Assembly (NCBI GenBank): GCA_000004985.1
Contig: GG738853.1
Strand: one strand, 5' to 3'
DNA: 64,000 bases
Origin: Naegleria gruberi
Lineage: Eukaryota
Shown here in pieces: positions 42,538 through 64,000 of the stretch. The translations under genes and the position numbers were made by a program. Each line of letters begins with the position of its first letter. The first letter of the stretch is position 1. Below the pieces are notes generated by a model. That model did not search any database and had not been told where the DNA came from. It worked only from the letters and a program-made list of their open reading frames with translations.

Positions 42538-45500
42538 ATGTATAATAGCAATACAACAAATGTTAGACCGATATCTAGCAGTATGGGTCCACCTCCCTTG
42601 AGTGCAAATAGTGCATCAAGAAGAACGATAGCTGCTACAACAGGTCCACCTCCTTTTAATCCTAATAATCGAGTTCCTACTGCTGTAGTAACAACACCAA
42701 TGCCGATGGTTAACGGTGGACAACCTCCTAATCCTTTCTTCAGACCTCCATATCCAAACAATCCACCAATACCTAATGGTATGATTCCGAATAATATGGG
42801 TGGATATATGCCACAACCAATGTGGTCACCAAACGTCCCTGTAACAAGTCCTAGTATGAGAAATCAACCACCTGTACAAAATAATTTTATGCCTGTTAAC
42901 AATAATAATACTTCAATGACACTATCTACTCCAAGTTCATCTGCATCAAGAAATAGAAGTGTATCAATTGGATCAGCACCTGTTCCAACTGGTGATCCGA
43001 ATGAAGCAAAATTATTTGATGAATTACTCACTACTTTCTATAGTGATCCAGTAAGAATTGATGAAATTTCTAGGATGGATTTATTTTGCATTAGAAGTGC
43101 TTTACCAAAAACAACTTTTGAAGAAATAGATATTTTCTCGAGCTATTTTGGACATGGATCTAGTGTGGATGCTTCTTCATTTGGAGCTAATTTATTATTG
43201 AATGATGATAATAATAATAATAACAATACAACACTTGACTATAATAATGGACAAAACTCTGTAATTTCCTCCTTACGACACGCAATTAGAAAATTATATT
43301 TGGAAGCTTTTCGTGATGATGACAAATTTTCTGCCTCTCTTCTTTCCTATCATTTACTTTTATATAAGAGATTGAAAATTTTGGAAAAGGTTCAGGAGTT
43401 TCAACATGGTAAAATGAATTCTACACAATCACTGAAAGTTCAATTTGAACAACTTCCTTCCAATAATGCTCTAAGTATTGCTGTTGATCATAATATTGAC
43501 AAACCAAGTACTTCTGTAATAGCTACATGTGCTCTTTCGAGTGTTCCTGTTAACACAACTGAAATGACCCAAGTTGCTGAGCATCAATATCAACCTCTTA
43601 AAAGGGAAGATTTGGATACTTTTACAAAGAATTTAATCAAAGCAATGCAAAAGAGCGATGTGAAAAAAGGTATTTTTGCCAAACTGAGGAAGTCGAAATC
43701 AGAATCAATTTACAAAATTATTACAAAGTATGCATATCCACTATGCTTACCACTGGAAATTTTAGATATTGAATCACTAAATCCAGTCAAACAATATTTG
43801 GTAGAATATTCATTGGATAAGGAAAATGGTTTGAAACGTAGAACAAAATCAATTCACTCCATGTTGCTTTTGGCTTTGAGTACTGGCTCTTTATTAGACA
43901 TGCTCCAAGTGTTACAATGCCTTCTTTCACTTTCCGAGAATCCTGACGATCCTCTCATTGATGCAGAGACTGAAGACGAAGGAAGCTTTGTAATGCGTGC
44001 CGAAACTCTAAAGCCACTACAACAATTCCAATATTTGATTAAGATGCATTTGGATCAATTAGAAAAGGACTCGAGTCATACACCTGGGAAAAACAATGAC
44101 TTACCTACGTATCTATTACCTCAACATATTTGGAACGACCCTAACTATTCTTTAATATCCTTCTCATCAAATGGTGTATCATTGAACTTTAATTGGAAGA
44201 AACCTTACCTGACCGCAAAGCGACTTTTCCTTTTTTTGCTTAACCAAATAGACATGTTAGCGACCCATTACTTGTACTGTGAATCATATAGCACAATTAA
44301 TTCTCAGGGAGATCTAGTCATAGAGCTGGGAGATTCAAAGAATATTAACTCACTTCTCAATCATAGAGAGAAGTTTTTGAAAAATAAGATTAGTGCAAAT
44401 ATCAAATTTTCTATCGAGTTGGGATCACCGAGAACCTTTTCGTCATTACTAGATATCATTGATAGCATGTTACAAATTCAAAATACCTCTAACAGTGAGC
44501 TTAATGGAGTTAAAAACTATTCCATTGCGGCACTTTTCAGAATATTGCACTTGAATGTGAAAGCATTGAGTTTGTGGAAAAAAGGAAGAGAGAACGTTAA
44601 TCAACTTGTGCAGCATCGTATGTCTAGCAGTACAGGTTATTCTAATGTAAATTTCATCGAGTCTATGAAGGGCTATTTCCTTGGGTTCCTCAAAGAAATT
44701 GACACTGATTTGGAAACTAATCAAGATGGACTCAAAAGTTTTGAAACCATCCACGAGGCCAAACCTAGTTCTCAATCAAGGTCAAAAGATCCAAACATCA
44801 AGGAACAACCAAAGAATCAACAAAAAACAACACAAGACCAAAAGAAGGATGTTACAACTAATCCTTTTATTCTGAACTTGTTCGGATCTACAGCAAAAGA
44901 GCCTGTTCAAGAAGAACAACAAACCAATTTTGACATCGAAGAGAATGACGATTTTGTTGTAATTTCAACAACACCTGGTCATCCAAATAATAGGGAACAA
45001 CCACCAACACCGGAGGAAGTTAAAAATGTTTCAAAGTATAGATCAATACTGGCAGCCTTGGCACCTCAAACTTTCATGTCTAAATTTATTTCTGAAAAGA
45101 TGTTGGACATACTAGTTACTGGATTTTCTATTTTCTACCCATCTCCCGAAGAGCAAAGATTTTTCTTAGAAGATTCAATAAGTATATTATCGAATGGTGG
45201 AAAATCGAACAGCACAAGCTTACTCTCTTCTTCTACAGAAGTTCCTTTAAGAAGAAACTTTTTAAAGAAGTTATTAGAACGATTGGTTAATGATTTTACT
45301 CTATTTGAAAAGTTGATTGCTAATGGTATTGGCATGTCTGATGTGAGTGTGGTGATCCCATTCACAGAAAAATTATTAGAATTTATCAAACGTCAAGAAC
45401 AATTCAAAATGGCAGAAGTTTTATCTAAACTCTCCAAGTTTACACCAGAAAAAGATATCAAACCAAATGATATTTACATGCATGAGGATTTGGAAATTAT

Positions 45501-48500
45501 TGCAAATCTTGTCAAACAACTGATGATAATGTGGCAAAACTTTTTATTCCATTATGTTCACTCAATTTTTAGTAAGAGTTCTGTTTCAAACAACAATGGT
45601 GTTGTAAATTCAATCTTGGGAACAAACACTGGAAAAGTCCTGTTTGAATACTCTAGACTTATTCTTAATCAAAGTGAAGAAGTTTTAAATGAAATGTGTA
45701 AAATCTCAGCTGAAATTATTGAAGTGAAATCAAAAGTTGACAAATCATCTGTTGATGAAGTTAATTCCCTATTAACGATTGGAATTTGTGAAGGTATTCT
45801 GCAAAAAGGCGCCACAGGGTGGTTATGTTTCCCTCTCTTGCTTAACTTTGCTAAATTCTTGTGGAAGGGTAGTATTCTTAGTAATTCTAAATCTGCAGCT
45901 GGAAATGTTGTTATAGAATCTCAATTAGAAAAGTTAACTCAATTTTTATATCCTCCTGTGGTTAATCTCTTGAGAATGATAGATTTGCTTTGTCAATTCT
46001 GTGATGTTCAAGAATTCAAATCTGAGGCCGAAAGGTTATTAATTGACTGGACTATTGTAGAAACTGAACATCCATATGATGGTAATGTTACTGATTGGAA
46101 AGAAGTTAATTTTATAGATCCTAACAATAACATTATCAATGTGGGTATCAAATTTGATCCTAGATGTATTACCTCTGGTCCTGAAGATCACCTTAGAATT
46201 AACTCTTTACAAAAAATTGCCAATCTTCAAGCTTTACAATTCTCAGGACATGGAACAACAATTCCAGTTAATCCTTTATTAACATGGGGAGCTGGCATGT
46301 CTTGCAGTTTCAAGAGCGGTAATTTTGCTCTTAATTCAAGTGAAGGAGGAAAACAAGGAAGCATGTGGGGAATGAGATGTCTTGTAGTACCAGTTAGAAG
46401 TTTCTCTGCACCTCCATTGTTTATGTACGAATTTTCTAAGTTATTAGGTCACATTGGTGGAAGATGCAGTACTTATTTGCTTTCAACCTATCCATACAGT
46501 AGTGATGAAGACAAGTACGTAGAATGGTTGGAAAGCAAGATATTTGCCAATGGAATCAAAGGAGAAATTGGACAACCTACAGAGCAAAACACAGAAAAAC
46601 AATCAAATAACAATAATAATGGTCTTTTGCTTCTAAGAATGGAGGAAGACTTCTCCAAGAATTCAATGATGTACCAACAAGCAAAGACAATAGCACCAGG
46701 CAAATTCGGTTCAAATCCATATGATCTCATCGAAAAAGTTGACGTAGATAGCTCTTCGAGTGACGTATTAGATGTTGCTGACAAATTCTTATTGGAAATG
46801 ATCGAACCAACATCAAATACCTCTGCTCCAATCAACTATTGCAATTACATGTATCAAAGAATTCTCAACAAGGAATCATTTACACAAATGATGCAACAAG
46901 TACCTGATGTTGTCTCTGCTGAAAGAGCAGTTATTGCAGCAGTTTTAAAGCATACAGGTTTGGACTCTCTAGCAAGAAAAGTTTCAGATGCTGTTGCTGA
47001 AAGCCCATTCCTTCTTTCTGAGAATGTTGATAAGGATTCATACGAAAAATCCATGTCCCTCTTGGATATTATGTTCAAGAATGGAGATTATGAAAAGTTG
47101 AAATTAATGTGGAGAAAAGTTGGAAGAACTCTAAGAGAGTGGATGATCAAAACCAAACAACAAAAGCAACTGTCTTACCGTGATATGAGAGACTTTATTG
47201 TTCAAAAGTGCAAATTCTTGATTTCTCTTGAGAGTGCATTTATGAGTACGGTCCCATTAGATGCCAGGGATATTGGTACTACAGAGAAGTCTTCTTTATT
47301 CAAGAAAGTACAAAGTCCAAGAGCTGTGGAGAAATCTTCATTATTTTCTCAACAACTTACACATAATTTTGTATTCAATCGTTTTAAGAAAGGAAATATT
47401 GGCGGTTTTACAAATATACTACCAAGTGATGATTTTGTTGGAGATATTTCTTCACAGATTGTCAAATTCATTCAAAGTGATATCATACCAGTAAGAATTC
47501 AAAACTTGATGAGAATGAGAAGTGAAAGAGCATTGAATAGAGCAACATCTCTTCAAATGTTTAGTGAACTTTTGCAAAGCACTCAATTTGCTAGTGTTAA
47601 AGCTGAAATTGTTCATGGTATTAAAGCTGTTAGACAAAACAGATCCATGAAGAAGATAGACTCACCAAACTTCCACTACTTCAACAATGTAGAGGGAAGT
47701 GGCCCAATGTATTCAGATATTTTGAGCTCAAGTCTTAGCGATTTCTTAAAGCAATTGTTCTACCCTCTGGATTCTTGCATTTCTACATCTTCACAAGAAG
47801 AAAAGGAAAAGCAACTAAGAGTCTTGGTTCAAAGTGGCTTGTTAAGAGAAATATTAGATATTTGCTTGATATCTTTCAAGCACAATGATATCAAATGGAT
47901 TATGCAATTTGATTTCTTAGAAAAGCTCTCCTACCTGATGTATAATACCATCTCAACTCCTGAACAGAACACTGATAAATTTAAAAGAAGGGATGGATTC
48001 ACAGAGGAACAGAAAGAAATCAATAAGAAATCTTGGAAGATATTCAGACTTTTATCTATCAGATGTGTGGAAATGTTGGAAGAAAATGCAATCACTGATC
48101 CAGTTGTAGAATCTCAGCTGAATGATTTGAGAGATACTGTCTTTAACTTGTTGTTCAAGGATTTGAAGAGAGTAATCGGCGATATGAATTCTGAAATTTC
48201 TTCAGAAGTTTTAGAAGAAATGCTTTCTCTCATGGTTTCTCTTTCTAACACACCATCAGCACAATCTTGTTTATCAAGCGAAAGATTCCAACAATTATTA
48301 TTACCACTGTTGAGATTAGAAAGCTATCCAAAGGTTCAAGAGTTATCGCTCAAATTATGTGGACAACTTATCACAAGCTATGGAGAGCTTTCTACTGATA
48401 ATAACTATAGTGAAGGTTTGAAAGAATTACTAACAATATTATTCGAGTTCTTGGGAGCCTATGAGACTAAACAAGTAACTGGCGACGCTTCTCTTGTCAA

Positions 48501-51500
48501 TGACAAAGATGGTAGTGGTTCTATTGGTATGAAAATGGCCAAAGATATCTTCAACTTGATAAGAAAATTATTCAGGGATATACCTGTTGATGATCATTCA
48601 TCTGCACCTTACTTTGTAGGAGTACTTACTTCATTAATGGATCAAGCTATTAATCTCTCAACACAAAATATAATACAGAGTATCAGGAAGGGAAAAACCT
48701 CTGTTTTGAAGGATATTCAATTGGTTTACTCCACTTTGACAGTCCTTAACGGATTTAATTGTGTTCCCCAAATTGGAGAAATTGTTAATGTAGATATGAA
48801 TGGCAGAGTTGAAAAAGCTAAAGTTAAAGAAATTGAGGAAACCTATCACTTGATCAAAATTGAACTATGTGACAAGACAGTCATTCACAGAGAACACTTT
48901 GTCTCTGCTGAGAATGTTAAGGTTGAAACCAACCAACCAATTGAAAAGTTTGACTTACAAAAGCAACATGTACACTCCTTATTCAAATTTATAACTGAGT
49001 TGGGAGTTATGGTGAATGGTACTGATTTAAGTTTAGATGACAAGATTCTATACTCTAATTTGTGGATGAGATCATTACGTTGGTTATTGGATGCTATTTC
49101 CATTCAAAATAACTATTCAACTATTGTTACAGAAACTTTACTTGGTGCCGATTCTGATTATGCTAATATGCTTGAAAAACTTGTTGGCCTTGGAGAAAAA
49201 TCAACTATTTACCAAACACTTGCTAATGAAACAAACAAGTCACTCATAACCTATGGTAAAGATCTTAAATTGGATTCTTGCAGTTTTACATTTACAGGAA
49301 AGAAATTCCACAAACAATACTACTATAGTTGCCAAACTTGCAGTATGAACACTAACCAAGCTGTTTGTGCATTCTGTGCCAGAACTTGCCATAGAGGACA
49401 TCGCTTGGGTACTTTGGAAGTTGGTGATTTCTATTGTGATTGCGGAGCTGGAGAAGCTGCAGCAAAGACACACGGAACATCTAATTGTAAGAGTTTAAGA
49501 AATGCATCCCCAGATCCAATTCTTACAACCGAAAGAATGGAAAGTGTAATGCTTCGTTTACAAAAATTAATGCCAATATCTTCCAAACGAAATCAAGCAG
49601 ATACACTTGATTTGGTACCGAACAGTCCAAATAGTAGTACTGCTTCACAAAACAATCAACCAGTTCAAAAAGGACCTTCCAAATTTGTGGTAACCAACAC
49701 TCTTGTACAAGATGGGGTACCATACACAATTAATAATGCTCCAGGAGAACTTCCACTCATCACTTTCAATCCAATGCGTTTGTACTCTCCAAAGCATTCT
49801 ATAATTGCTACAGACTTTTCAGTTCCAATGAGCTGGCCTGGTTTTTACTTTGAAGTAGAACTTGTGGATTGTGGAGAAAGTTTTGCAATTGGTTTTTCAT
49901 TACCATTTAATCCAACTAGTGCCATTACCTACAAGACAATCTTCTCTCAAACACAAAATATGTACACATGGCATACAGAAGCTGGTACTTTATACAAAGG
50001 AAATACTATTGTTAAAAACTCTTATCCAACTGCTTCAACAAAGGATGTCATTGGTTGTGGATTTATTAGAGAACAAAAAACTATTTTCTTTACTAAGAAT
50101 GGTGTAAATTTAGGACCTTCTTTCCAAAATGTTGATTTAATAACACTCAGTCCAATTATTGCTATGAAGGGAAAGAACGTACAAGCAAGAGTTAATGTTT
50201 CTATGATTAAGCCATTCCAATTTAACTTGCCAAGAAATTTCAAGTTGCTTGTTCCTGTATATTATGCTATTAACAATCCTACATCAGAAATTGTAGAAAC
50301 CAATCAACCACTGGGTAAGCCTTCTCAACCAGTTGTTCAAAATGAACTATCTGTCTTTGAAACCAGAGTCAAAGAATTGAAATCAGTTGTTAATGGACTT
50401 TACACTGAAGATGATATCAGAAGAGTGTTAACCTCTCTCAATAATATGGAAGGAAGTAATTTGAACATTCTTAACTTTGCTTTATCCATTTTACACAGAA
50501 ATATGCAACCTCAAGTTCAAGTCATTTCTAAAACAAATGCACCAACACAACCAGAGGCTGTTCCTGTTCTAAGATTACAATTGGTAGAACAAATGAAGTT
50601 GATGGGCTTTACTAATGATAAGGTTTGCTTGAAAGCTCTTCAACTTGCCAATGACGATATTAACTTGGCTTTGAACTATGTTTTCGAAGGTGTTGTTGTT
50701 GAAGATACACCTCCACTTATTCCTAATATGGCTTCTAGCAGCAGTATTAGCATTCCTTCTTCTATTGCTCCTCCTGCCAATCCTTTTGTTGATAGAGAAG
50801 AATTCATAAAGAAGAATGAAAAGAGTGTAAATGACATTTTACTCTTTGAAAATTCTGGTGTACCATTGCTTGGATCAGAATGTAACAACTCTGATATGAA
50901 ACAAAGATTATTGAAAGCTATGCTTCAAAACCCAGACATGAAAATTAACGAAAATAACTTTTGTGATTCTAATAATTTGAGAGAGGGCGATTTGGTTGTT
51001 GTTTCACCAAGAATTGTTGCTGTTGCTGATAATAACAGTGATTCTGGATATGATCTTTCTAGAAATAAGAAGACTGCTGCCCTGTCTAAACTTCGTGGTA
51101 AACTTGGCGTTGTATCTCGTAAGGTAACCTATGGCCCATACGTTATGGTAGCAGAGGAACAAGGTGCTGGATCTATTGTTACAGATTTGGTTGAATCCAA
51201 GAATGTCTACACAGCTCCACACGAGCTCAAAGGAATTACCATCAATGATGTTCCTGCAAAATGTTTAGAATTCTATATGGCTTTATCATCAACCTATATC
51301 AGAACAACAATTTTGAAAGCTTTGATAAAGGCATCAGAGATGAAAAATTTCAAAATGGATCTACCAAAGACCTTTTCAACAAAGAAGAATCTCATGAAAG
51401 GATTGAAGCTAACTTTGATAGATTCCTATCACCACTTGGATACCGATTATAACTTTATTTCTTCATATACCAATAATGTTATTCTTGAAAAGTCCGTAGA

Positions 51501-54500
51501 CTATGATAATAATTATACATTTGCCAATAAGACATTACCTGCTATAGAACATTTTGAATCTTGGAAGAATATGGAAATTACTAATTCTGAAAACAAAGCT
51601 TCTGACATTTTCTTGGAAATTGAAGAAGAAGCACTCAATGATCTAAATGCTTATACTCTTGGACTTAATAACTATAGAAAATATGATTATAGAAAAGATA
51701 TGAATGTATTGCACCAACAACCTACACCTTACAAGCAACATTTTATTCAATTTTATGGTGCCACTTCTATTGCTATTATTTTGGGAGAAAAATTTGAATT
51801 ACCAACAACATTGGACTGTCTTACATTCTATTTTGATAGAAATGGTAAGAAAGTTGCATTGCAAATCAAGGGAGGTACTCCAGTTCAAGACAGATGTCTC
51901 ATCATCACAACAAATAATTACAATTATTTCAACCAAACAGAACCTTTTGCCAATCAAGCACAACTATACTTTGAATTTACTGGACCAAGCGTAAGAGAAA
52001 ACAATGGTGTTACCTTCTATGCAGCTCCTTACACTACAAAATTATCTCAAAGGGATGCCTTCCTTCAACCAAATATGCTCCTCTCTTCTTTAGTATTGAA
52101 GTACTCAGCCATCAGTAGAAAATCAAGAAAAGTTGATTTTACTGCAGCTCTTTACTTCCCAATCATGGGAAGATACCTGTTAACACCATTTGCTCCTTTC
52201 AAGGGTATTGTAGCTGATGCTCTTTGTCAATTAGACTATAGCAGTCCAGTTATTTTCAATTCTCACATAGATCCAATGTCTCACACTGGTATAAGGGATA
52301 GTATTGTTAAAAGTGGTCCAGCTTATGCTCACTTGTCATTATTGAAGAGGTTTAGAGTTGAATTGGAAGATTTATACAGAAAATATTTGAGATATAATGA
52401 AACTTCACCTCATGCCCTCCATAATTTCCACGCTCTGACTGAATTTATGACTGTCGTAAGAAAATACCTTGTTAGTGACTTGTGTCAATCCATGTTCCCA
52501 AGTGCCTCAAGCAGTTTATCTAATTTACCAACTAACCTTGCAAATATATTAGACAAACATCACATGTACAGTTGTAAGTTAGATCAACAACATTATGGAA
52601 GAACAGTTGAAAGAGAAACCCTGGCATGTACCAGTTGTACTCATAGTGTTGCTAAGCAGTTATCCATGTACGAAACAAAACCTTCCTCTTCTTTTGCCAA
52701 ATATTTTGCTAATGAATCCACCAAATGTCAATCCCAGGTTGCTATGGAGTTCCAAATCAAGTATGATCACGAAAACTCATGTAATGTAGCAACAAGTATT
52801 GTTCCAATAGGAACTACAAGTGAATCCGTTTCAAAACTTTTCTCTAAGGAAGATAACTTGTTACAAGTTAACCCATCAGATTGGTTTGAACATGTATCTT
52901 GGGTTGACCAACTCACAATTATTAGAGAATTTTTGGAAACATTCACATCTAATAATGGTAGAACCTTCCCAGAATGGACCTTGTTTGAATCGATTCTTGA
53001 GAAGAGAAAGAAGGTCTGTTACAAGGAAAGCAAACATCCATACTCTGTTGTTAATGACTCTGATAAGATTAAGATTCCTGGAGCCAAGACCCTCTACATT
53101 ACCTTTGATAAACACAGTAAGACTCACAAGTGTGATCGACTGCTCTTTAGTACTAAGAAGGCAGGCTCTGACGACTTGGGATCTTTCGGTGGAGATGAGT
53201 TGAAAGACAAAACTATTGTTGTACATGGTACAGACTCTGTTTACTATGATTTCACTTGTGGTGGAGGTGATCATGACGTTAAATGCTCTGGATGTAGATC
53301 TAATATTTCTGGAGTTCGTTATCACTGTGTCGAATGTGAGGAGTATGACCTTTGTGAAAAATGTGTTTCCAAGCAAGGAAGAGTTCACTCTGATTTGCAC
53401 TTGTTCCTTAAAATTAGAAGGCCAGTTGATTGTATGCCTGCTATGATTCCTTCACTTTATACTCCAAGATGGAGGTCTACCTCTCAATTCAAAGGAAATA
53501 TTCACGTTGGAGTTAAATGTGACAATTGTGGTGTAAATCCAATCAAGGGTATTCGTTATTGGTGTGAAAATTGTGAAAACTTCAACCTTTGTGAAAAGTG
53601 CGCTGACACTGAGTTCAAATACCATGATAGAATGCACATTTTCTTGCGTGTTGTTAGACCTTTACCACCAAAGAATCAAATGCCTGCCAATGCTCTTCCA
53701 TATGGTCTCGTTTATGAGAAAGATATGGATTCTCACTGGGGTTATATGTTTAGCGTTTCTTCCTCTATTGAAGCTTGCCCTAGAATATCACAAGTCCAAA
53801 ATGAGATTGATGAAATAAGATCTTTAATGAAGATTGGAAAGGATAATCAACCTATTGGGGAAGACGATGTAGATCCTGTCGAGTTTGACAAGCAACTACT
53901 CGAATATGTTGAAACATATAGCAACGGATGGCAATCATTAGAATGGAATCAACTCTCACCAAAGAAAGAAGAATTAACTAATTTACCGCTACTTGATAGA
54001 GTCCCTCTCAACAGACTTAGATATAGATTCGTTCTTCTCAAACTTTTCAACAGAAGAATTTCACGAGTTATCAATATTTTAGATTTTACAAATACTTCAA
54101 ATATTGAGAGAATGAATGACTCAAGAGCTGTAACTATTACAGACATGATTAGTCAACAATTGAGAGATAGAATTTTCTATTCTGTAAAGATGGATGCTTG
54201 GCAACATACTATCATGAAGTCTCATGTAACAGTTGATCCTATCCATTTGAAGCTCAATAGACATTTGGCCTCTGAAATGCACCCAACAGATAGACAAAGA
54301 AATGCCTTCAATTCTCTCTTTATTCAAGCTTTCAACCAAGTTAAATCTATGCATCCAAAGATTTTGAGCAGAAAACAAGCCTCATGGAAGGTAACATTGA
54401 TTGGCGAAGCAGCTGATGACTATGGTGGACCTTTCAGAGAGTCTTTATCAAACATGTGCCAAGAATTGATTGCTAATGATCCTTCTGTTTTGGATTTATT

Positions 54501-55479
54501 CATCCCAACTCCTAACAAGGTTTCTGGACAAGGTGATAACAGGGACAAGTTTGTTCCAACTCCAAAGAGCACAAGTGATCAACATCTCAAGTGGTATGAA
54601 TTTGTAGGAATGTTAATGGGTATTGGTATTCTTACGAAGAACGTTTTGCCATTCGATTATCCTTCCTTAATTTGGAAAAGTCTTGTTAATGAAAAGATTG
54701 GTTGGACTGATTTGAGATCCTTTGATGAAGAAATTTACAATGCCATGAAATCAATACTTGAACTTGGAGATGTAGACGATTCAGATTATGAATTGAAATC
54801 AATTATGGAAGACAGTTTCTCTCAGACCTACTATGGAAGAATGCTTACCACAATGGGAAGCGACGGCAAAGAAGTAGAGCTTGTACCAAATGGTACTAAT
54901 ATTGAACTTTCCTATAATAATAGAAAACAATATGCAAACTTGATCTATGATTACCGATTAACTAAAGAGTTTAATTCCCAATTGAATGCCATCAGAAAAG
55001 GACTGTTCAACATGCTCACTAACAGATACTTTAGTCTCTTCTCTTGGCATGAACTGGAAAGAAACGTGTGTGGTATTCCTGATGTAGATGTTGAAAAATT
55101 GAAGCAACACACAATTTATGAAGGATACACAATCCAAAGTAGAGAAATCAAGCACTTCTGGGAAATTATGCAAGCATTCAGTCCAGAACAGCGCTCACTT
55201 TTCCTCAAATTCGTCTGGGGTAGAGGTAGAATGCCTTACAATGAGAGTGAGGCCTTCTCCAATCCAATGAAGATTCAAAAACTTGATAGACCAAATCCTG
55301 ACATTGTCTTGCCACTTTCGCACACTTGTTTCTTCTCTATTGAGTTGCCATCCTACTCTACAAAGGAAATTATGAAAGAAAAACTCTTGTATGCCATCAT
55401 CAACTGTAAAGCTATTGATATTGATTTTACTACAAGCGCAATAGAAGCTCAGAATTATTCTATTGCTGTAAGAAGATAA
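42538..55479 (+). CDS. giant HECT-domain E3 ubiquitin ligase (4313 aa) with UBR-box, SPRY-like, UBA and two ZZ zinc-finger modules
   Basis: Single uninterrupted 12,942-nt ORF from ATG 42538. The N-terminus is P/N-rich low complexity. A UBR-box-type finger lies at ~49.28-49.47 kb (CSFTFTGKKFHKQYYYSCQTCS...CAFCARTCHRGHRL...FYCDCG). A SPRY/B30.2-like segment lies at ~49.8-50.2 kb (WPGFYFEVELV...IGCGFI...TIFFTKNG). A UBA domain lies at ~50.57-50.69 kb (LVEQMKLMGFTNDKVCLKALQLANDDINLALNYVFEG). Two ZZ fingers are present (CSGCRSNISGVRYHCVECEEYDLCEKC at ~53.28-53.42 kb and CDNCGVNPIKGIRYWCENCENFNLCEKC at ~53.51-53.65 kb). The C-terminal HECT domain has the catalytic Cys in ...LPLSHTCFFSIELPSY... (~54.4-55.48 kb). 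Confidence 0.9.
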   Translation: MYNSNTTNVRPISSSMGPPPLSANSASRRTIAATTGPPPFNPNNRVPTAVVTTPMPMVNGGQPPNPFFRPPYPNNPPIPNGMIPNNMGGYMPQPMWSPNVPVTSPSMRNQPPVQNNFMPVNNNNTSMTLSTPSSSASRNRSVSIGSAPVPTGDPNEAKLFDELLTTFYSDPVRIDEISRMDLFCIRSALPKTTFEEIDIFSSYFGHGSSVDASSFGANLLLNDDNNNNNNTTLDYNNGQNSVISSLRHAIRKLYLEAFRDDDKFSASLLSYHLLLYKRLKILEKVQEFQHGKMNSTQSLKVQFEQLPSNNALSIAVDHNIDKPSTSVIATCALSSVPVNTTEMTQVAEHQYQPLKREDLDTFTKNLIKAMQKSDVKKGIFAKLRKSKSESIYKIITKYAYPLCLPLEILDIESLNPVKQYLVEYSLDKENGLKRRTKSIHSMLLLALSTGSLLDMLQVLQCLLSLSENPDDPLIDAETEDEGSFVMRAETLKPLQQFQYLIKMHLDQLEKDSSHTPGKNNDLPTYLLPQHIWNDPNYSLISFSSNGVSLNFNWKKPYLTAKRLFLFLLNQIDMLATHYLYCESYSTINSQGDLVIELGDSKNINSLLNHREKFLKNKISANIKFSIELGSPRTFSSLLDIIDSMLQIQNTSNSELNGVKNYSIAALFRILHLNVKALSLWKKGRENVNQLVQHRMSSSTGYSNVNFIESMKGYFLGFLKEIDTDLETNQDGLKSFETIHEAKPSSQSRSKDPNIKEQPKNQQKTTQDQKKDVTTNPFILNLFGSTAKEPVQEEQQTNFDIEENDDFVVISTTPGHPNNREQPPTPEEVKNVSKYRSILAALAPQTFMSKFISEKMLDILVTGFSIFYPSPEEQRFFLEDSISILSNGGKSNSTSLLSSSTEVPLRRNFLKKLLERLVNDFTLFEKLIANGIGMSDVSVVIPFTEKLLEFIKRQEQFKMAEVLSKLSKFTPEKDIKPNDIYMHEDLEIIANLVKQLMIMWQNFLFHYVHSIFSKSSVSNNNGVVNSILGTNTGKVLFEYSRLILNQSEEVLNEMCKISAEIIEVKSKVDKSSVDEVNSLLTIGICEGILQKGATGWLCFPLLLNFAKFLWKGSILSNSKSAAGNVVIESQLEKLTQFLYPPVVNLLRMIDLLCQFCDVQEFKSEAERLLIDWTIVETEHPYDGNVTDWKEVNFIDPNNNIINVGIKFDPRCITSGPEDHLRINSLQKIANLQALQFSGHGTTIPVNPLLTWGAGMSCSFKSGNFALNSSEGGKQGSMWGMRCLVVPVRSFSAPPLFMYEFSKLLGHIGGRCSTYLLSTYPYSSDEDKYVEWLESKIFANGIKGEIGQPTEQNTEKQSNNNNNGLLLLRMEEDFSKNSMMYQQAKTIAPGKFGSNPYDLIEKVDVDSSSSDVLDVADKFLLEMIEPTSNTSAPINYCNYMYQRILNKESFTQMMQQVPDVVSAERAVIAAVLKHTGLDSLARKVSDAVAESPFLLSENVDKDSYEKSMSLLDIMFKNGDYEKLKLMWRKVGRTLREWMIKTKQQKQLSYRDMRDFIVQKCKFLISLESAFMSTVPLDARDIGTTEKSSLFKKVQSPRAVEKSSLFSQQLTHNFVFNRFKKGNIGGFTNILPSDDFVGDISSQIVKFIQSDIIPVRIQNLMRMRSERALNRATSLQMFSELLQSTQFASVKAEIVHGIKAVRQNRSMKKIDSPNFHYFNNVEGSGPMYSDILSSSLSDFLKQLFYPLDSCISTSSQEEKEKQLRVLVQSGLLREILDICLISFKHNDIKWIMQFDFLEKLSYLMYNTISTPEQNTDKFKRRDGFTEEQKEINKKSWKIFRLLSIRCVEMLEENAITDPVVESQLNDLRDTVFNLLFKDLKRVIGDMNSEISSEVLEEMLSLMVSLSNTPSAQSCLSSERFQQLLLPLLRLESYPKVQELSLKLCGQLITSYGELSTDNNYSEGLKELLTILFEFLGAYETKQVTGDASLVNDKDGSGSIGMKMAKDIFNLIRKLFRDIPVDDHSSAPYFVGVLTSLMDQAINLSTQNIIQSIRKGKTSVLKDIQLVYSTLTVLNGFNCVPQIGEIVNVDMNGRVEKAKVKEIEETYHLIKIELCDKTVIHREHFVSAENVKVETNQPIEKFDLQKQHVHSLFKFITELGVMVNGTDLSLDDKILYSNLWMRSLRWLLDAISIQNNYSTIVTETLLGADSDYANMLEKLVGLGEKSTIYQTLANETNKSLITYGKDLKLDSCSFTFTGKKFHKQYYYSCQTCSMNTNQAVCAFCARTCHRGHRLGTLEVGDFYCDCGAGEAAAKTHGTSNCKSLRNASPDPILTTERMESVMLRLQKLMPISSKRNQADTLDLVPNSPNSSTASQNNQPVQKGPSKFVVTNTLVQDGVPYTINNAPGELPLITFNPMRLYSPKHSIIATDFSVPMSWPGFYFEVELVDCGESFAIGFSLPFNPTSAITYKTIFSQTQNMYTWHTEAGTLYKGNTIVKNSYPTASTKDVIGCGFIREQKTIFFTKNGVNLGPSFQNVDLITLSPIIAMKGKNVQARVNVSMIKPFQFNLPRNFKLLVPVYYAINNPTSEIVETNQPLGKPSQPVVQNELSVFETRVKELKSVVNGLYTEDDIRRVLTSLNNMEGSNLNILNFALSILHRNMQPQVQVISKTNAPTQPEAVPVLRLQLVEQMKLMGFTNDKVCLKALQLANDDINLALNYVFEGVVVEDTPPLIPNMASSSSISIPSSIAPPANPFVDREEFIKKNEKSVNDILLFENSGVPLLGSECNNSDMKQRLLKAMLQNPDMKINENNFCDSNNLREGDLVVVSPRIVAVADNNSDSGYDLSRNKKTAALSKLRGKLGVVSRKVTYGPYVMVAEEQGAGSIVTDLVESKNVYTAPHELKGITINDVPAKCLEFYMALSSTYIRTTILKALIKASEMKNFKMDLPKTFSTKKNLMKGLKLTLIDSYHHLDTDYNFISSYTNNVILEKSVDYDNNYTFANKTLPAIEHFESWKNMEITNSENKASDIFLEIEEEALNDLNAYTLGLNNYRKYDYRKDMNVLHQQPTPYKQHFIQFYGATSIAIILGEKFELPTTLDCLTFYFDRNGKKVALQIKGGTPVQDRCLIITTNNYNYFNQTEPFANQAQLYFEFTGPSVRENNGVTFYAAPYTTKLSQRDAFLQPNMLLSSLVLKYSAISRKSRKVDFTAALYFPIMGRYLLTPFAPFKGIVADALCQLDYSSPVIFNSHIDPMSHTGIRDSIVKSGPAYAHLSLLKRFRVELEDLYRKYLRYNETSPHALHNFHALTEFMTVVRKYLVSDLCQSMFPSASSSLSNLPTNLANILDKHHMYSCKLDQQHYGRTVERETLACTSCTHSVAKQLSMYETKPSSSFAKYFANESTKCQSQVAMEFQIKYDHENSCNVATSIVPIGTTSESVSKLFSKEDNLLQVNPSDWFEHVSWVDQLTIIREFLETFTSNNGRTFPEWTLFESILEKRKKVCYKESKHPYSVVNDSDKIKIPGAKTLYITFDKHSKTHKCDRLLFSTKKAGSDDLGSFGGDELKDKTIVVHGTDSVYYDFTCGGGDHDVKCSGCRSNISGVRYHCVECEEYDLCEKCVSKQGRVHSDLHLFLKIRRPVDCMPAMIPSLYTPRWRSTSQFKGNIHVGVKCDNCGVNPIKGIRYWCENCENFNLCEKCADTEFKYHDRMHIFLRVVRPLPPKNQMPANALPYGLVYEKDMDSHWGYMFSVSSSIEACPRISQVQNEIDEIRSLMKIGKDNQPIGEDDVDPVEFDKQLLEYVETYSNGWQSLEWNQLSPKKEELTNLPLLDRVPLNRLRYRFVLLKLFNRRISRVINILDFTNTSNIERMNDSRAVTITDMISQQLRDRIFYSVKMDAWQHTIMKSHVTVDPIHLKLNRHLASEMHPTDRQRNAFNSLFIQAFNQVKSMHPKILSRKQASWKVTLIGEAADDYGGPFRESLSNMCQELIANDPSVLDLFIPTPNKVSGQGDNRDKFVPTPKSTSDQHLKWYEFVGMLMGIGILTKNVLPFDYPSLIWKSLVNEKIGWTDLRSFDEEIYNAMKSILELGDVDDSDYELKSIMEDSFSQTYYGRMLTTMGSDGKEVELVPNGTNIELSYNNRKQYANLIYDYRLTKEFNSQLNAIRKGLFNMLTNRYFSLFSWHELERNVCGIPDVDVEKLKQHTIYEGYTIQSREIKHFWEIMQAFSPEQRSLFLKFVWGRGRMPYNESEAFSNPMKIQKLDRPNPDIVLPLSHTCFFSIELPSYSTKEIMKEKLLYAIINCKAIDIDFTTSAIEAQNYSIAVRR

Positions 55480-60058: not shown

Positions 60059-60583
60059 TTACTGATTCCTCAGTTCTTGTTTGACTTCAGTTAGTAACTT
60101 TCCAAGTAGATTTAAACCAGGCCATTTTGAAGGGTGGGTCTCTATTGCTTCGTGTTCTCTCATTCCTATTCCCCAAATTGCATCATTTGGAGATGCTTCC
60201 GCTAATATCTTATCGCCAGTACTTAATAGAGTTTGTTTGATATCCTCATTCTGTGAAAATTTTGCATAAAGATGTCTCTTCATAATTAGCTCTCTATTTT
60301 GATTCCACATGTCGTCAGTGAAATTCGACACCATTCTTCCAAGCTGTTTAGCATTTGATGGACTTGTATTGGCCAAAATATCTTTTGCCACCTCATCATC
60401 TCCGAATAATTTAGCTTTCCCATACATCATTCCTTGTTCTGTATTTGCAAATTGAATTCCATCTAATACATAACTAGCTGCATGCCAATTACTAAACACT
60501 GATTTATCCTTCCAAAAGAACTCGTATTTTTGAGTATTGCCGAACTTGTCGTATGGTTTCTTTGATTGTTGTTGGGATGGCAT
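60059..60583 (-). CDS. NADAR-domain protein (YbiA-like, DUF1768)
   Basis: ATG at 60583-60581 and 174 aa. It matches the E. coli YbiA/NADAR family along its full length (...YEFFWKDKSVFSNWHAASYVLDGIQFANTEQGMMYGKAKLFGDD...ILANTSPSNAKQLGR...). The domain is predicted to process NAD-derived or ADP-ribose-type metabolites. Confidence 0.8.
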   Translation of the reverse strand: MPSQQQSKKPYDKFGNTQKYEFFWKDKSVFSNWHAASYVLDGIQFANTEQGMMYGKAKLFGDDEVAKDILANTSPSNAKQLGRMVSNFTDDMWNQNRELIMKRHLYAKFSQNEDIKQTLLSTGDKILAEASPNDAIWGIGMREHEAIETHPSKWPGLNLLGKLLTEVKQELRNQ

Positions 60584-60902: not shown

Positions 60903-62504
60903 ATGCAACAAGTTAATTCATCATTAACAATGAAGTTAATTACGTTCATTGCCATATTTTTAATGATCATTAACATGGCAACATGTGTATCATTAAATAA
61001 TCATCATCCTGTCACTTCTCATGTCAATAATGACATTAATTATCATCAAGTAATTTTTGACTATATGAAAGATCGTTCTAATGAAAATTTTAAATATCAA
61101 CTTTTAAATTCGGTTGACATTCCAAACACTGCTAAATTTTATGTATTTAACATGACAAGTGTCAAATGGTTAACTAACAAGGAAGTGTCACGTAGTGAGT
61201 GGTATCATTTTGTTGAAATTGTTGTTCCCTATCAAATAACTCAAACTAAACAAGCACTCATGTTAATTGCAGGTGGATCATCAAATTCACAAGTTCCAAC
61301 ACTTGACAAGGAATTAATTCAAATGGGTGTTTTAACAAAATCAATTGTTTGTACCATTCATCAAATTCCAAATCAACCACTCACTTTCTTATCAGATCCA
61401 GAAAAGAAGAGTCGAGTTGAAGATGCAATTTTAGCATTTGCTTGGGCAAGATTTATGAATTTAACACAGGAAAATGATGAATTGAAAAGTAATACTGAAT
61501 GGATTCCAAGACTTCCAATGGTCAAGTCAACTCTATTTGCTATGGATTTAGTTCAAGAATATTTATTGAAAAATCTTAATATTAAGGTTGAAGATTTTCA
61601 TGTTGCTGGTGCTTCAAAGAGAGGTTGGACGACAAATCTTGTTGGTGTTGTTGATCAGAGAGTTAAGAGTATTATTCCTATTGTTATTCCAATTTGGAAA
61701 ACAAGAGAAGTATTGGGTATGTTTTTTTTTCTTTTTATTGAACTAGTTGTATATTGAACTATGAAATTCTTATTGACTGGATTGTAACTTATTGTAACTT
61801 ATTGTAAAAATATAGAACATACATATAATTCACTTTGTTTTTGGCCTGAAGCAATGGGTGATTATGTAAGGGAAGGAATTATCAATCGATTGAATTCAAA
61901 GGAATTTAAATTATTAGCAGATGTTATTGATCCATTCGAATATAATGATATTCTTGCTGGTAAATTTAAATATTTTGTTAATGCAGTTGGTGATCAATTC
62001 TTTGTACCTGAATTGAGTCAATTCTCCTATCCATTTATTAAGGGAAGTGATGAACGTAAACATTTGAGATATATTCCAAATGCAGATCACTCAATGGCTG
62101 GTTCTGATGCTGAACTTACAATTTTGGCCTATTACTATTGTTTAATTAACAATATTTCACTTCCAATTTATAATTTCAATTTGAAATCTGATTCATTATT
62201 GACTGTCAATATTGTAAAGAATATTTTACCAATTAAGAGTATTTTATTATGGGAAGCTTTTGCTCCAAATAGAGATTTTAGACAACAAACTATTGGAAAT
62301 GTTTGGAAATCAAGAGATATTTCTACTAATTACAATGCTCAAACTTGTCAAATTAGTGTTAATTTAAATAATCCACCAAGTGGTCAATTTTATGCTGCAT
62401 TTGTTGAATTGACATTTGATCTTGGAGGTGCTATCTATCTCAAATTCACAACTTCAGTTTATATTCTTCCAAATGTTTTACCATGTCATTATAGTGACAT
62501 TTAG
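60903..62504 (+). CDS. PhoPQ-activated pathogenicity-related (PqaA) family protein with signal peptide, two exons: 60903..61716 and 61816..62504
   Basis: ATG at 60903. The N-terminus is hydrophobic (LITFIAIFLMIINMATCVSL). The family motif ...VAGASKRGWTTNLVGVVDQRVKSIIPIV... is present. Exon 1 ends phase 1 at a GTATGT donor (61717). The acceptor is TATAG at 61815, with an alternative in-phase acceptor GAAG at 61851. Exon 2 is in frame with track ORF 61854..62504. Confidence 0.7.
61717..61815 (+). other. intron (99 nt, GTATGT...TAG) with an alternative in-phase acceptor 36 nt downstream (61851)
   Basis: Reading through gives a stop after MFFFLFIELVVY. The intron contains a tandem attgtaactt duplication. 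Confidence 0.55.
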
Positions 62505-62682
62505 TTTGGAATAGAATATGGATTTAGTATGAATGAGATATTCCAATAAAAAAGTATTTCATTGATTTCAATTGTAGTATGCTTTGTGCTTTGAGAATTT
62601 TCACTTATACTAACTCGAATTCCATCTTTAAATATTTAAATATTAATATTGTTGAATATTTAAAAAGTTTTACAAAAAAAAA

Positions 62683-64000
62683 ATGATGAAAAAGGCCATC
62701 AAACAATTTTCCTGTAATATTCATAACAATAACAACAACAAAACTAGAAAGGAAGCACTCTCCATCCTCTCTAGAAAACACAATTATTTAAATAATAATC
62801 AACAAAGAAATACATCTTTCGGACAAGAACAAATTAAATGTTTTTCATCAAGCCTTTTATCTTTAACATCATCTAATAGTAATACAACAACATCAACAAC
62901 AGCAACAACTCAAGCAAGTTCTAAATTTCCAACTCGTCCAGTTCCTGCCGTATCTGTTACTCTATTAAAATTAATAACAAGAGGTTCCGAAGTGGATGGA
63001 TTTAAAGTTTTAATGATTAGGAGAGGAAAGGCTCCTGGAAAGGATTTGTTGGCTCTTCCTGGTGGACATTTAAATCTCGGAGAACGAATGATTGAAGGAG
63101 CAAAGAGAGAATTGCAAGAGGAGACTGGAATTAATGCTGATTTAATTCATTTCACTAATGCTCCACTCTTAACTGTTGAATCAATTTATTATCATCAGGA
63201 GGGAGATGATGGGAATGAGACAACTTCTCACAATGAAGAGGAGGATATTAGAACTATGAAGATTTCAACAAAATCGAATGAAATTAATTTTAGAAAGGAA
63301 CTTGGTGAGGAGTTGACTAGAAGAAAGAGAGAAGGAGATGATTCTATTCAAATTCAATATCATTTCATTATTTCAAGTGTTTTGGGTATTGTTCCACCAG
63401 AATTAAATCATCAAATTGAAGGAGAACCTTCAGATGATGCTTCACAAATTCAATGGATTAAAATTATGAAAAATGGAAAGAGTAGAAATTCTGTGGAATT
63501 GGATGAAGAGGGATGTATTACTACTCACATGAGTGAATGGATGGATGAAAGAAATCATAGAGGATTGTGTGAAAAGTTAAAGACTATTTACACTATGCCA
63601 ATTGTTGTACGTCATGCTATTATGAGACTCATTTCTTGTTATCCAGAAATTCAATCGCAAGCTCTTGTTACACCAACAGATTTATCCCTCTTGTATCAAT
63701 TGAATGACATGATGGTATTCTATCCAATAAGAGATAAGGTTTTGGAATTTTGGTTCCAAGGTGACATGGCTCCTCAACAATGGTGGTTCAAGTCAAGTCC
63801 AACCATTGATCAAGGTATTAAGAAATTATTCGAATCTCATGTTGCTGCTCTTTCCAATAAGCTTGAACTTCTCTTTGAAAAGTCATTCGAAGAAATTGAT
63901 GCAGTTTTGAAGAAGCAATCTAAGGAAACCTTGTTATCTGCCATGATCATGTTGGATCAATTCCCAAGAAATATGTACAGAAATAGTGCAAAGAGTTTTG
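62683..64000 (+). CDS. Nudix hydrolase fused to a C-terminal DUF924-family domain (3' end truncated by window edge)
   Basis: ATG at 62683 (MMKKAIKQF...). The track does not list it because the ORF runs off the window. The N/S/T-rich N-terminus is presequence-like. It carries the Nudix box GGHLNLGERMIEGAKRELQEETGI. Then, in the same frame with no intervening stop, comes a region ending ...LSAMIMLDQFPRNMYRNSAKSF that matches the hallmark LDQFPRN motif of DUF924 proteins. Confidence 0.7.
   Translation, partial: MMKKAIKQFSCNIHNNNNNKTRKEALSILSRKHNYLNNNQQRNTSFGQEQIKCFSSSLLSLTSSNSNTTTSTTATTQASSKFPTRPVPAVSVTLLKLITRGSEVDGFKVLMIRRGKAPGKDLLALPGGHLNLGERMIEGAKRELQEETGINADLIHFTNAPLLTVESIYYHQEGDDGNETTSHNEEEDIRTMKISTKSNEINFRKELGEELTRRKREGDDSIQIQYHFIISSVLGIVPPELNHQIEGEPSDDASQIQWIKIMKNGKSRNSVELDEEGCITTHMSEWMDERNHRGLCEKLKTIYTMPIVVRHAIMRLISCYPEIQSQALVTPTDLSLLYQLNDMMVFYPIRDKVLEFWFQGDMAPQQWWFKSSPTIDQGIKKLFESHVAALSNKLELLFEKSFEEIDAVLKKQSKETLLSAMIMLDQFPRNMYRNSAKSF

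What the first reader, a model, noticed from the sequence alone, without database searches (positions are those of the whole stretch)
62683..64000. Nudix-DUF924 gene fusion in a single uninterrupted frame
The Nudix box GGHLNLGERMIEGAKRELQEETGI and the DUF924 hallmark LDQFPRNMYR are in one frame with no stop or intron between them, over ~1.3 kb. I do not know DUF924's function. Fusion to a Nudix pyrophosphohydrolase is a guilt-by-association clue that DUF924 acts on a nucleotide-derived substrate. The N-terminus looks like an organellar presequence.
Basis: seen in the sequence. Interest (0 to 1): 0.55.

Follow-up and report, generated by a model that had tools for sequence, protein, structure and literature searches.

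The report
Nudix–DUF924 fusion gene in Naegleria
This is a real single-exon Naegleria gruberi gene joining a Nudix pyrophosphatase to a complete DUF924 domain behind a mitochondrial-looking leader, but it occurs only in Naegleria and its relative Willaertia, is already in the databases, and bacterial genomes show no matching link, so it is a weak clue to what DUF924 does.

Summary
Window 62683-64000 (+) is one ORF of 439 codons that starts at the first ATG after an in-frame stop and runs off the window end. Pfam finds NUDIX and DUF924 in it, both above their curated cut-offs.

The window is Naegleria gruberi. The gene is the annotated 542-aa 'predicted protein' XP_002680429.1 (UniProt D2V5P2), already tagged with both domains.

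- **Orthologues:** the same fusion exists as a single exon in N. fowleri and N. lovaniensis, and also in Willaertia magna.
- **Integrity:** both domains keep their invariant residues and are conserved about equally.
- **N-terminus:** the 61-85-aa extension diverges fast but stays basic, acid-poor and Ser/Thr-rich, which fits a mitochondrial presequence.
- **Distribution:** a profile search of 1.84 billion representative proteins found no Nudix-DUF924 fusion outside these heteroloboseans.
- **Bacteria:** in 80 bacterial DUF924 loci no neighbour family recurs, and Nudix genes lie nearby at about chance frequency.
- **Fold:** DUF924 matches only Atu0120 (unknown function) and generic TPR-like helical proteins.
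- **Substrate:** the Nudix substrate cannot be read from sequence or model.

Verdict: a real, lineage-restricted, uncharacterised fusion. The functional inference about DUF924 is plausible but uncorroborated.

The parts
62505..62682 (+). AT-rich intergenic / 5' region between the stop of the upstream PhoPQ_related gene and the start codon. It holds several in-frame stops, the nearest 10 codons upstream of the ATG, and an A-run directly before the ATG.
62683..62937 (+). N-terminal extension (aa 1-85), a putative mitochondrial presequence. It has 12 K+R, 2 D+E and 25 S+T, is poorly conserved in sequence, and carries a K-C-F-S-S motif at aa 52-56.
   Evidence: compared with N-termini of N. gruberi mitochondrial-proteome proteins in PMC8134430 Suppl. 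Data 2
62938..63642 (+). Nudix domain in the broad sense (aa 86-320): beta-strands, Nudix box, lineage-specific insert, second half of the fold, and conserved C-terminal helices.
63061..63132 (+). Nudix box GGHLNLGERMIEGAKRELQEETGI (aa 127-150), a perfect GX5EX7REUXEEXGU. The catalytic Glu/Arg residues are invariant in the Naegleria orthologues.
63199..63345 (+). Insert of about 50 aa (aa 173-221) at the position where NadM-Nudix/NrtR-type relatives carry the GRDPRG loop. The first half is modelled as disordered and the second half as a conserved helix (EINFRKELGEELTRRKR).
   Evidence: alignment; AF2; 48-55% identity between species
63643..63720 (+). Inter-domain linker (aa 321-346). It is less conserved (33-41% identity), has a 9-aa length difference between species, and ends in a short conserved helix DLSLLxQ(L/M)(N/D)D.
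63721..64000 (+). First 93 residues of the DUF924 domain (aa 347-439), including the FWF motif and LDQFPRNMYR. The domain continues for 103 more codons beyond the window end (aa 440-542 of XP_002680429.1).

Best explanation
This is the 5' 81% of a single-exon nuclear gene of Naegleria gruberi (XP_002680429.1 / NAEGRDRAFT_64152). It encodes a three-part protein.

1. **N-terminal extension (about 55-85 aa).** It is basic and Ser/Thr-rich and most likely directs the protein into the mitochondrion, where it is removed.
2. **Nudix domain.** It has an intact catalytic box, so it most likely hydrolyses the pyrophosphate bond of a nucleoside-diphosphate-X compound. Around the box it is closest to the ADP-ribose pyrophosphatase domains of NadM-Nudix and NrtR proteins. 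Its substrate loop is replaced by a conserved insert of about 50 aa, so the actual substrate is unknown.
3. **DUF924 domain.** It is complete, keeps every family-invariant polar residue, and has the all-helical fold of Atu0120.

**Shown:** one ORF; both domains pass their thresholds; the fusion is conserved in three Naegleria species and in Willaertia; both domains are under similar constraint.

**Inferred:** mitochondrial import; Nudix activity; and, most weakly, that the DUF924 half binds or processes the same phosphorylated or nucleotide-derived metabolite, or a product of the Nudix reaction.
For: - **One gene.** The window holds 439 open codons. It is 100% identical to an annotated 542-aa protein. 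The orthologues are single exons in N. fowleri and N. lovaniensis. A fused orthologue exists in Willaertia magna and in a further environmental relative.
- **Constraint.** Between N. gruberi and the other two Naegleria species, the Nudix core is 64-68% identical and DUF924 53-56%, against 21-23% for the N-extension and 33-41% for the linker.
- **Presequence.** All five orthologues have an extension that bacterial homologues lack, with 9-12 K+R against 0-3 D+E. Its net charge of +7 over the first 40 aa ranks second of 27 long ORFs in the window. A (K/R/Q)-x-F-(S/H)-(S/T) motif near aa 45-55 resembles the N-termini of proteins in the experimental N. gruberi mitochondrial proteome.
- **Nudix affinity.** The best NCBIfam and PDB sequence hits are NadM-type NMNAT/ADP-ribose pyrophosphatases. 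Identity to such proteins over the box region is 60-73%.
Against: - **Functional coupling is unsupported outside this lineage.** Among the 150 best of 10,473 hits in 1.84 billion representative proteins, no other Nudix-DUF924 fusion appears. In 80 bacterial DUF924 loci no neighbour family occurs in more than 11 loci. Nudix is within 8 kb in only 2 of 80. The 20 tightly adjacent same-strand neighbours are functionally heterogeneous.
- **Localisation is unproven.** The protein was not found in the held, truncated copy of the N. gruberi mitochondrial proteome table. No dedicated targeting predictor could be run.
Confidence: 0.6

Rival explanations
1. The fusion is real but functionally incidental. 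Two unrelated genes became joined once in an ancestor of Naegleria and Willaertia and stayed joined because fission is rare. DUF924 works independently, for example as a TPR-like binding or scaffold module, and the fusion says nothing about a nucleotide substrate.
For: The fusion has a single phyletic origin. There is no bacterial gene-neighbourhood link between DUF924 and Nudix. DUF924 also fuses to unrelated partners: MaoC dehydratase, DUF1499, and itself. The fold resembles only TPR-like helical proteins. The linker is poorly conserved and varies in length.
Against: The fused state persists across species only 38-55% identical, with both halves under similar constraint. About 15 invariant charged or polar residues in a 190-aa domain look more like a specific ligand or active site than a generic scaffold.
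Confidence: 0.3
2. The Nudix half is a ligand sensor rather than an enzyme, as in NrtR-type regulators where a Nudix fold binds ADP-ribose. It would regulate the DUF924 half.
For: The closest sequence relatives include the NrtR/AraR clade. The substrate loop is remodelled by a large insert. The Willaertia orthologue has Thr in place of the last Gly of the box.
Against: The catalytic Nudix-box residues (E134, R142, E143, E146, E147) fit the consensus and are invariant in the four Naegleria-type sequences. From general knowledge, non-catalytic Nudix sensors usually have degenerate boxes.
Confidence: 0.07
3. The protein is not mitochondrial. The N-terminal extension would be a low-complexity tail of a cytosolic or otherwise localised protein.
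For: The protein was not found in the held part of the N. gruberi mitochondrial proteome table. Asn/Ser/Thr-rich low-complexity runs are common in Naegleria proteins. The cleavage-site-like motif has K or Q rather than R in most orthologues.
Against: The compositional bias (basic, almost no acidic residues) is kept in five orthologues despite about 22% sequence identity. The extension is absent from bacterial homologues. The C-termini (…LESQ, …FSSF) are not SKL-like peroxisomal signals.
Confidence: 0.25
4. The fusion is a gene-model or assembly artefact, with two genes or exons wrongly read as one.
For: None found. The window itself is cut at aa 439, so the 3' end is not visible here.
Against: The frame is uninterrupted in the raw window. 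It is also uninterrupted in independent assemblies of N. fowleri, N. lovaniensis and W. magna, and on an environmental contig. The junction region is conserved.
Confidence: 0.02

Closest known systems
Nudix (ADP-ribose pyrophosphatase) domain of bifunctional NadM-Nudix enzymes (Synechocystis slr0787, PDB 2qjo; Francisella, PDB 2qjt)
   Different: There is no NMN adenylyltransferase domain. NCBIfam scores are 37 bits against cut-offs of about 400. The GRDPRG loop and the Asp of PAVTxD are absent, and a 50-aa insert sits in the loop's place. The fusion partner is C-terminal and of unknown function.
NrtR / AraR-type Nudix-fold regulators (PDB 3gz5/3gz8, 5bs6)
   Different: There is no winged-helix DNA-binding domain. 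The Nudix box here is intact. The host is eukaryotic and the protein has a targeting-type N-terminus.
Atu0120 of Agrobacterium tumefaciens (PDB 2i6h), the only solved DUF924 protein found
   Different: Atu0120 is a stand-alone bacterial protein of about 200 aa deposited as 'hypothetical', so it supplies no function. The Naegleria domain is fused downstream of a Nudix domain.
Other DUF924 fusion proteins seen here (MaoC dehydratase-DUF924 P0182/P0367; DUF1499-DUF924 P0195; tandem DUF924 P0126 and Ploeotia vitrea P0135)
   Same: DUF924 sits as the C-terminal module of a two-domain protein. P0367 also has a long N-terminal extension.
   Different: The partners differ and share no evident function. 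No common substrate class emerges beyond the loose point that acyl-CoA and Nudix substrates are both nucleotide-containing cofactors.
[not shown]
   Same: These are nuclear-encoded Nudix enzymes with an N-terminal targeting sequence and an accessory domain.
   Different: There is no specific sequence relationship, and the accessory domains are unrelated to DUF924.

Membership tests
Nudix hydrolase superfamily (PF00293) | Nudix box GX5EX7REUXEEXGU with catalytic Glu residues | tested here: met
   aa 128-150 GHLNLGERMIEGAKRELQEETGI fits exactly. The residues are invariant in the four Naegleria-type sequences.
Nudix hydrolase superfamily (PF00293) | Profile score above Pfam gathering threshold | tested here: met
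   50.2 bits against 21.1; 47-50 bits in the orthologues.
Nudix hydrolase superfamily (PF00293) | Alpha/beta/alpha Nudix fold | tested here: met
   [not shown]
Nudix hydrolase superfamily (PF00293) | Pyrophosphohydrolase activity | not testable with these tools
   Needs an enzyme assay.
NadM-Nudix / NrtR-type ADP-ribose-binding Nudix clade | Family equivalog score (NCBIfam PRK05379 models) | tested here: not met
   29-37 bits against cut-offs of 354-449. Only the box region aligns.
NadM-Nudix / NrtR-type ADP-ribose-binding Nudix clade | Conserved GRDPRG(R) loop and PAVTxD strand seen in all retrieved members | tested here: not met
   In alignment A6 the loop is replaced by an insert of about 50 aa, and the strand reads PAVSVTLL without the Asp.
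NadM-Nudix / NrtR-type ADP-ribose-binding Nudix clade | Box context LALPGGF / DDA…W motif | tested here: met
   LLALPGGH, then D251 D252 A253 and W258 are conserved.
DUF924 (PF06041 / COG3803) | Profile score above threshold over the full model length | tested here: met
   182 bits against 27, profile 1-178/180 in the full protein. In the window fragment, 60 bits over profile 1-75.
DUF924 (PF06041 / COG3803) | Family-invariant residues (DQF.RN..R, P.EH.E, H, FGR.P.RN, R, E) | tested here: met
   All nearly invariant columns of the 55-sequence alignment carry the consensus residue in the Naegleria protein. Only the variable H/Y of FGRFP[HY]RN differs.
DUF924 (PF06041 / COG3803) | Atu0120-type all-helical fold | tested here: met
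   [not shown]
Mitochondrial presequence-bearing protein | N-terminal extension absent from prokaryotic homologues, basic, acid-poor and hydroxyl-rich | tested here: met
   61-85 aa, 9-12 K+R, 0-3 D+E and 11-25 S+T in five orthologues.
Mitochondrial presequence-bearing protein | MPP-type cleavage motif (Arg at -2/-3) | tested here: inconclusive
   RFY|ST in N. fowleri, but KCF|SS, QSF|HT and KSF|HF elsewhere, and none comparable in N. lovaniensis. It resembles RLF|ST, RNF|SS and QSF|HS in the N. gruberi mitochondrial proteome table.
Mitochondrial presequence-bearing protein | Positive call by a trained predictor, or detection in purified organelles | not tested
   No predictor is available. 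The protein is not present in the held, truncated part of PMC8134430 Suppl. Data 2.
Rosetta-stone (functionally informative) fusion | The two domains occur as separate proteins in other genomes | tested here: met
   Thousands of stand-alone DUF924 proteins of about 190 aa and stand-alone Nudix proteins.
Rosetta-stone (functionally informative) fusion | Independent recurrence of the fusion, or a conserved gene neighbourhood of the separate genes | tested here: not met
   The fusion is found only in Naegleria, Willaertia and one close relative. Nudix lies within 8 kb of DUF924 in 2 of 80 bacterial loci. From general knowledge, E. coli has about 13 Nudix genes in 4.6 Mb, so about 3 would be expected in the 1.14 Mb scanned.

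The most novel reading that the evidence does not exclude
DUF924 is an uncharacterised enzyme or ligand-binding module. It has more than 10,000 cluster representatives and about 15 invariant polar residues. In this reading it works on the same mitochondrial nucleotide-derived metabolite as its fused Nudix partner, for example an ADP-ribose-, NAD- or CoA-related compound or a damaged form of one. The Naegleria fusion would then be the handle that makes this large orphan family directly testable: assay the Nudix substrate panel with and without the DUF924 domain.
Probability: 0.2. Interest if true: 0.55.

Novelty: new member of a known kind. Interest (0 to 1): 0.3.

Why it matters
DUF924 (COG3803) is a large family, mostly proteobacterial and cyanobacterial but also found in eukaryotes. 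It has one solved structure, and the searched literature holds no functional study. Any reproducible association would help to de-orphan it. This fusion offers one concrete, cheap experiment: express the Naegleria protein and screen Nudix substrates with and without the DUF924 half.

As evidence it is weak, because it rests on a single evolutionary event and bacterial genomes do not echo it. For Naegleria biology it adds one more candidate to the mitochondrial nucleotide-housekeeping repertoire.

Tried and rejected
- **Literature.** Searches for DUF924, PF06041, IPR010323, COG3803, Atu0120 and the protein's accessions gave only a COG count table and incidental PDB mentions. No functional data turned up.
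- **Mitochondrial proteome.** I searched the supplement of PMC8134430 for the accession, the N-terminal peptide and 'Nudix'. Nothing was found, but the held file is truncated, so this is inconclusive.
- **Genomic extension.** The look-up of encoding contigs for the N. gruberi protein itself returned no record, so the 3' end was taken from the protein entry rather than from DNA.
- **Neighbour clustering.** Longer antisense ORFs displaced the DUF924 ORF in 29 high-GC loci and created a spurious 14-locus 'neighbour'. I redid it with the DUF924 ORF forced in.
- **Mixed alignment for AF2.** In A4 MAFFT misaligned the C-terminal halves of short Nudix proteins onto DUF924, so I discarded it. The full-length model was built from A5 (good DUF924, poor Nudix). 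The Nudix region was modelled separately from A6.
- **NADAR neighbour.** The NADAR gene 2.1 kb upstream was considered as a possible NAD/ADP-ribose 'cluster'. I rejected this because N. fowleri and N. lovaniensis have different neighbours.
- **PDB 2i9c.** My recollection that 2i9c is a DUF924 structure was not borne out. A profile search finds only 2i6h.

Full report
**1. The observation**

Window 62683-64000 on the + strand translates into 439 codons without a stop. The ATG at 62683 follows an A-run and is the first start after an in-frame stop 10 codons upstream. Several more stops lie further upstream in the same frame. With about 32% GC, roughly 7.6% of random codons would be stops, so an open stretch this long is not chance (about 1e-15 by my arithmetic).

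Both quoted motifs are in this frame.
- The Nudix box GGHLNLGERMIEGAKRELQEETGI is at aa 127-150.
- LDQFPRNMYR is at aa 424-433.

Pfam scores the fragment as NUDIX at 50.2 bits (cut-off 21.1) and DUF924 at 60.2 bits (cut-off 27). The DUF924 match covers only profile positions 1-75 of 180 because the window ends there.

**2. What and whose gene it is**

A search of the 5.8-billion-protein collection returns a 542-aa Naegleria gruberi 'predicted protein' that is 100% identical over all 439 residues. It is XP_002680429.1 / EFC47685.1 / NAEGRDRAFT_64152 / UniProt D2V5P2. The window is therefore N. gruberi nuclear DNA. The gene continues 103 codons past the window end, and the public record already carries both Pfam domains.

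The full protein scores 182 bits for DUF924 over profile 1-178/180.

Fused orthologues exist in several relatives:
- N. lovaniensis: 550 aa, 55% identity.
- N. fowleri: 565 aa, 49% identity.
- An environmental contig from SRR636569, cut by the contig end.
- Willaertia magna, KAL9641838.1, with both Pfam domains.

In N. fowleri and N. lovaniensis the gene is called as one uninterrupted ORF: 1698 and 1653 nt for 565 and 550 codons plus the stop. An unnoticed intron or a merged gene model is therefore excluded as far as genome data can exclude it.

**3. Anatomy**

*(a) aa 1-85, the N-terminal extension.* It is only 21-23% identical between N. gruberi and the other two Naegleria species. In all five orthologues it keeps the same composition: 9-12 Lys+Arg, 0-3 Asp+Glu, many Ser/Thr. 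The rest of the protein is net acidic. Among 27 long ORFs in the window, its net charge of +7 over the first 40 residues ranks second. A (K/R/Q)-x-F-(S/H)-(S/T) motif sits near residue 45-55. It resembles the N-termini of proteins in the experimentally defined N. gruberi mitochondrial proteome, which carry RLF-ST, RNF-SS and QSF-HS (PMC8134430 Suppl. Data 2).

*(c) aa 321-346, the linker.* It is less conserved and variable in length.

The Nudix core (64-68% identity) and DUF924 (53-56%) are conserved to a similar degree, so both halves appear to be in use.

**4. Does the fusion tell us what DUF924 does?**

I tested the three things a Rosetta-stone argument needs, plus fold and literature.

*Recurrence.* I ran a profile of the three Naegleria proteins against 1.84 billion representatives. 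It found 10,473 relatives, almost all stand-alone DUF924 proteins of about 190 aa. Among the best 150, I checked seven proteins of more than 300 aa and three of 266-287 aa by Pfam. Only the heterolobosean sequences combine Nudix and DUF924. A typical DUF924 hit scores at least 100 bits and a Nudix box adds about 30, so other fusions would have ranked within that list. The other architectures seen are:
- MaoC dehydratase-DUF924
- DUF1499-DUF924
- tandem DUF924

*Neighbourhood.* I examined 80 bacterial genome loci with 8-kb flanks, 1.14 Mb in total. After ORF calling and all-against-all clustering, no neighbour family occurs in more than 11 loci. Those that recur are large generic families: ABC exporters, GGDEF/EAL proteins, TPP enzymes, SDRs and sigma factors. 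Only two loci hold a Nudix gene. One is convergent and adjacent (L044) and one lies 2 kb away (L068). That is about the chance expectation from the usual Nudix gene density, which I take from general knowledge. Twenty tightly adjacent same-strand neighbours are heterogeneous: MOSC, YceI, enoyl-CoA reductase, HAD, PhoD, FBPase, LMW-PTP, aldehyde dehydrogenase, YaeQ and others. Three further contigs agree.

*Literature.* The library holds no functional study.

The inference that DUF924 acts on a nucleotide-derived substrate therefore rests on one evolutionary event. What speaks for a specific ligand or active site at all is the unusually high number of invariant Asp/Glu/His/Arg/Asn residues. What speaks for coupling is only that the fusion has been kept intact through considerable divergence.

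**5. Most likely mechanism**

I commit to the following. The protein is nuclear-encoded and imported into mitochondria. Its Nudix half hydrolyses a nucleoside-diphosphate-linked metabolite, and an ADP-ribose- or dinucleotide-type compound is the best guess from its relatives. Its DUF924 half binds or processes the same compound or a product.

My confidence differs by step:
- Single gene with two real domains: very high.
- Catalytically competent Nudix: fairly high.
- Mitochondrial location: moderate. No predictor was available, and the protein was not found in the truncated proteome table.
- Shared substrate: low, about 0.2-0.3.

The main rival is an incidental fusion with an independently acting, possibly scaffold-like DUF924.

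**6. Context**

The NADAR-domain gene 2.1 kb upstream on the other strand belongs to an NAD/ADP-ribose-linked family, which is tempting. However, the orthologues in N. fowleri and N. lovaniensis sit between a Zn-cluster factor and a cathepsin-type peptidase. The adjacency is therefore not conserved, and I treat it as coincidence.

**7. Novelty and score**

The gene and its two-domain annotation are already public. Nudix domains are well known to fuse with other domains. This fusion is lineage-restricted and uncharacterised, and nothing in the searched literature discusses it.

I class it as a new member of a known kind. Interest is modest at 0.3. It is a cheap, concrete lead for an orphan family, but weak evidence in itself.

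Noticed in passing
window 60059-60583 (-): A 174-aa NADAR-domain protein (PF08719, E 4.8e-51) lies 2.1 kb upstream of the Nudix-DUF924 gene on the opposite strand. NADAR is an NAD/ADP-ribose-linked family, but the adjacency is not conserved in N. fowleri or N. lovaniensis.
   Followed up: yes
window 60903-61757 and 61854-62504 (+): A PhoPQ-activated pathogenicity-related (PF10142) gene is split over two ORFs covering profile 3-214 and 228-367. It is evidently one gene with an intron of about 100 nt. It ends 178 nt before the Nudix-DUF924 start.
   Followed up: partly
window 40113-42047 (-): A 644-aa TPR-repeat protein has the N-terminus MKRQSLRVFSSS…, with net charge +6 and the first acidic residue at position 54. 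It also looks mitochondrial and carries the same R-x-F-S-S motif.
   Followed up: partly
window 42538-55479 (+): A single uninterrupted ORF of 4313 aa carries UBR-box, SPRY, ZZ and HECT domains, making it a giant E3 ubiquitin ligase.
   Followed up: partly
window 27862-28677 (+): A 271-aa ORF begins MARTKQTKRKT, a histone-H3-like tail, but has no Pfam hit at E <= 1e-5.
   Followed up: no
P0182 / P0367, P0195, P0126, P0135 (proteins): Other DUF924 architectures were seen. MaoC-like dehydratase-DUF924 comes from an AT-rich, eukaryote-like source and has a long N-terminal extension in P0367. There is also DUF1499-DUF924, and tandem DUF924 in a bacterial metagenome protein and in the euglenid Ploeotia vitrea.
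   Followed up: partly
L044 7980-8591 (+) and 8678-9262 (-) (Halioglobus sp. MAG): This is the only one of 80 bacterial loci where a Nudix gene is directly adjacent to DUF924. The two genes are convergent with an 87-bp gap.
   Followed up: no
P0125 (Willaertia magna KAL9641838.1), Nudix box: The Nudix box reads GGHLEFGENLLNGAIRELEEETTL, with Thr in place of the last conserved Gly. The gene model also ends early inside DUF924 (Pfam profile 1-109/180), which suggests an incomplete model.
   Followed up: no
P0370 (N. gruberi NAEGRDRAFT_76794, 238 aa, 37.6-kb scaffold): A second N. gruberi entry falls in the same 90%-identity cluster as the Nudix-DUF924 protein but sits on a different, short scaffold. 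It is probably an allelic or duplicated assembly fragment.
   Followed up: no
L088 1-765 (+) (Logan SRR636569 contig): An ORF ends only 26 nt upstream of the fused gene on this environmental contig. This recalls the tight upstream neighbour (a Zn_clus protein) in N. fowleri and N. lovaniensis, so the contig probably comes from another Naegleria-like amoeba.
   Followed up: no
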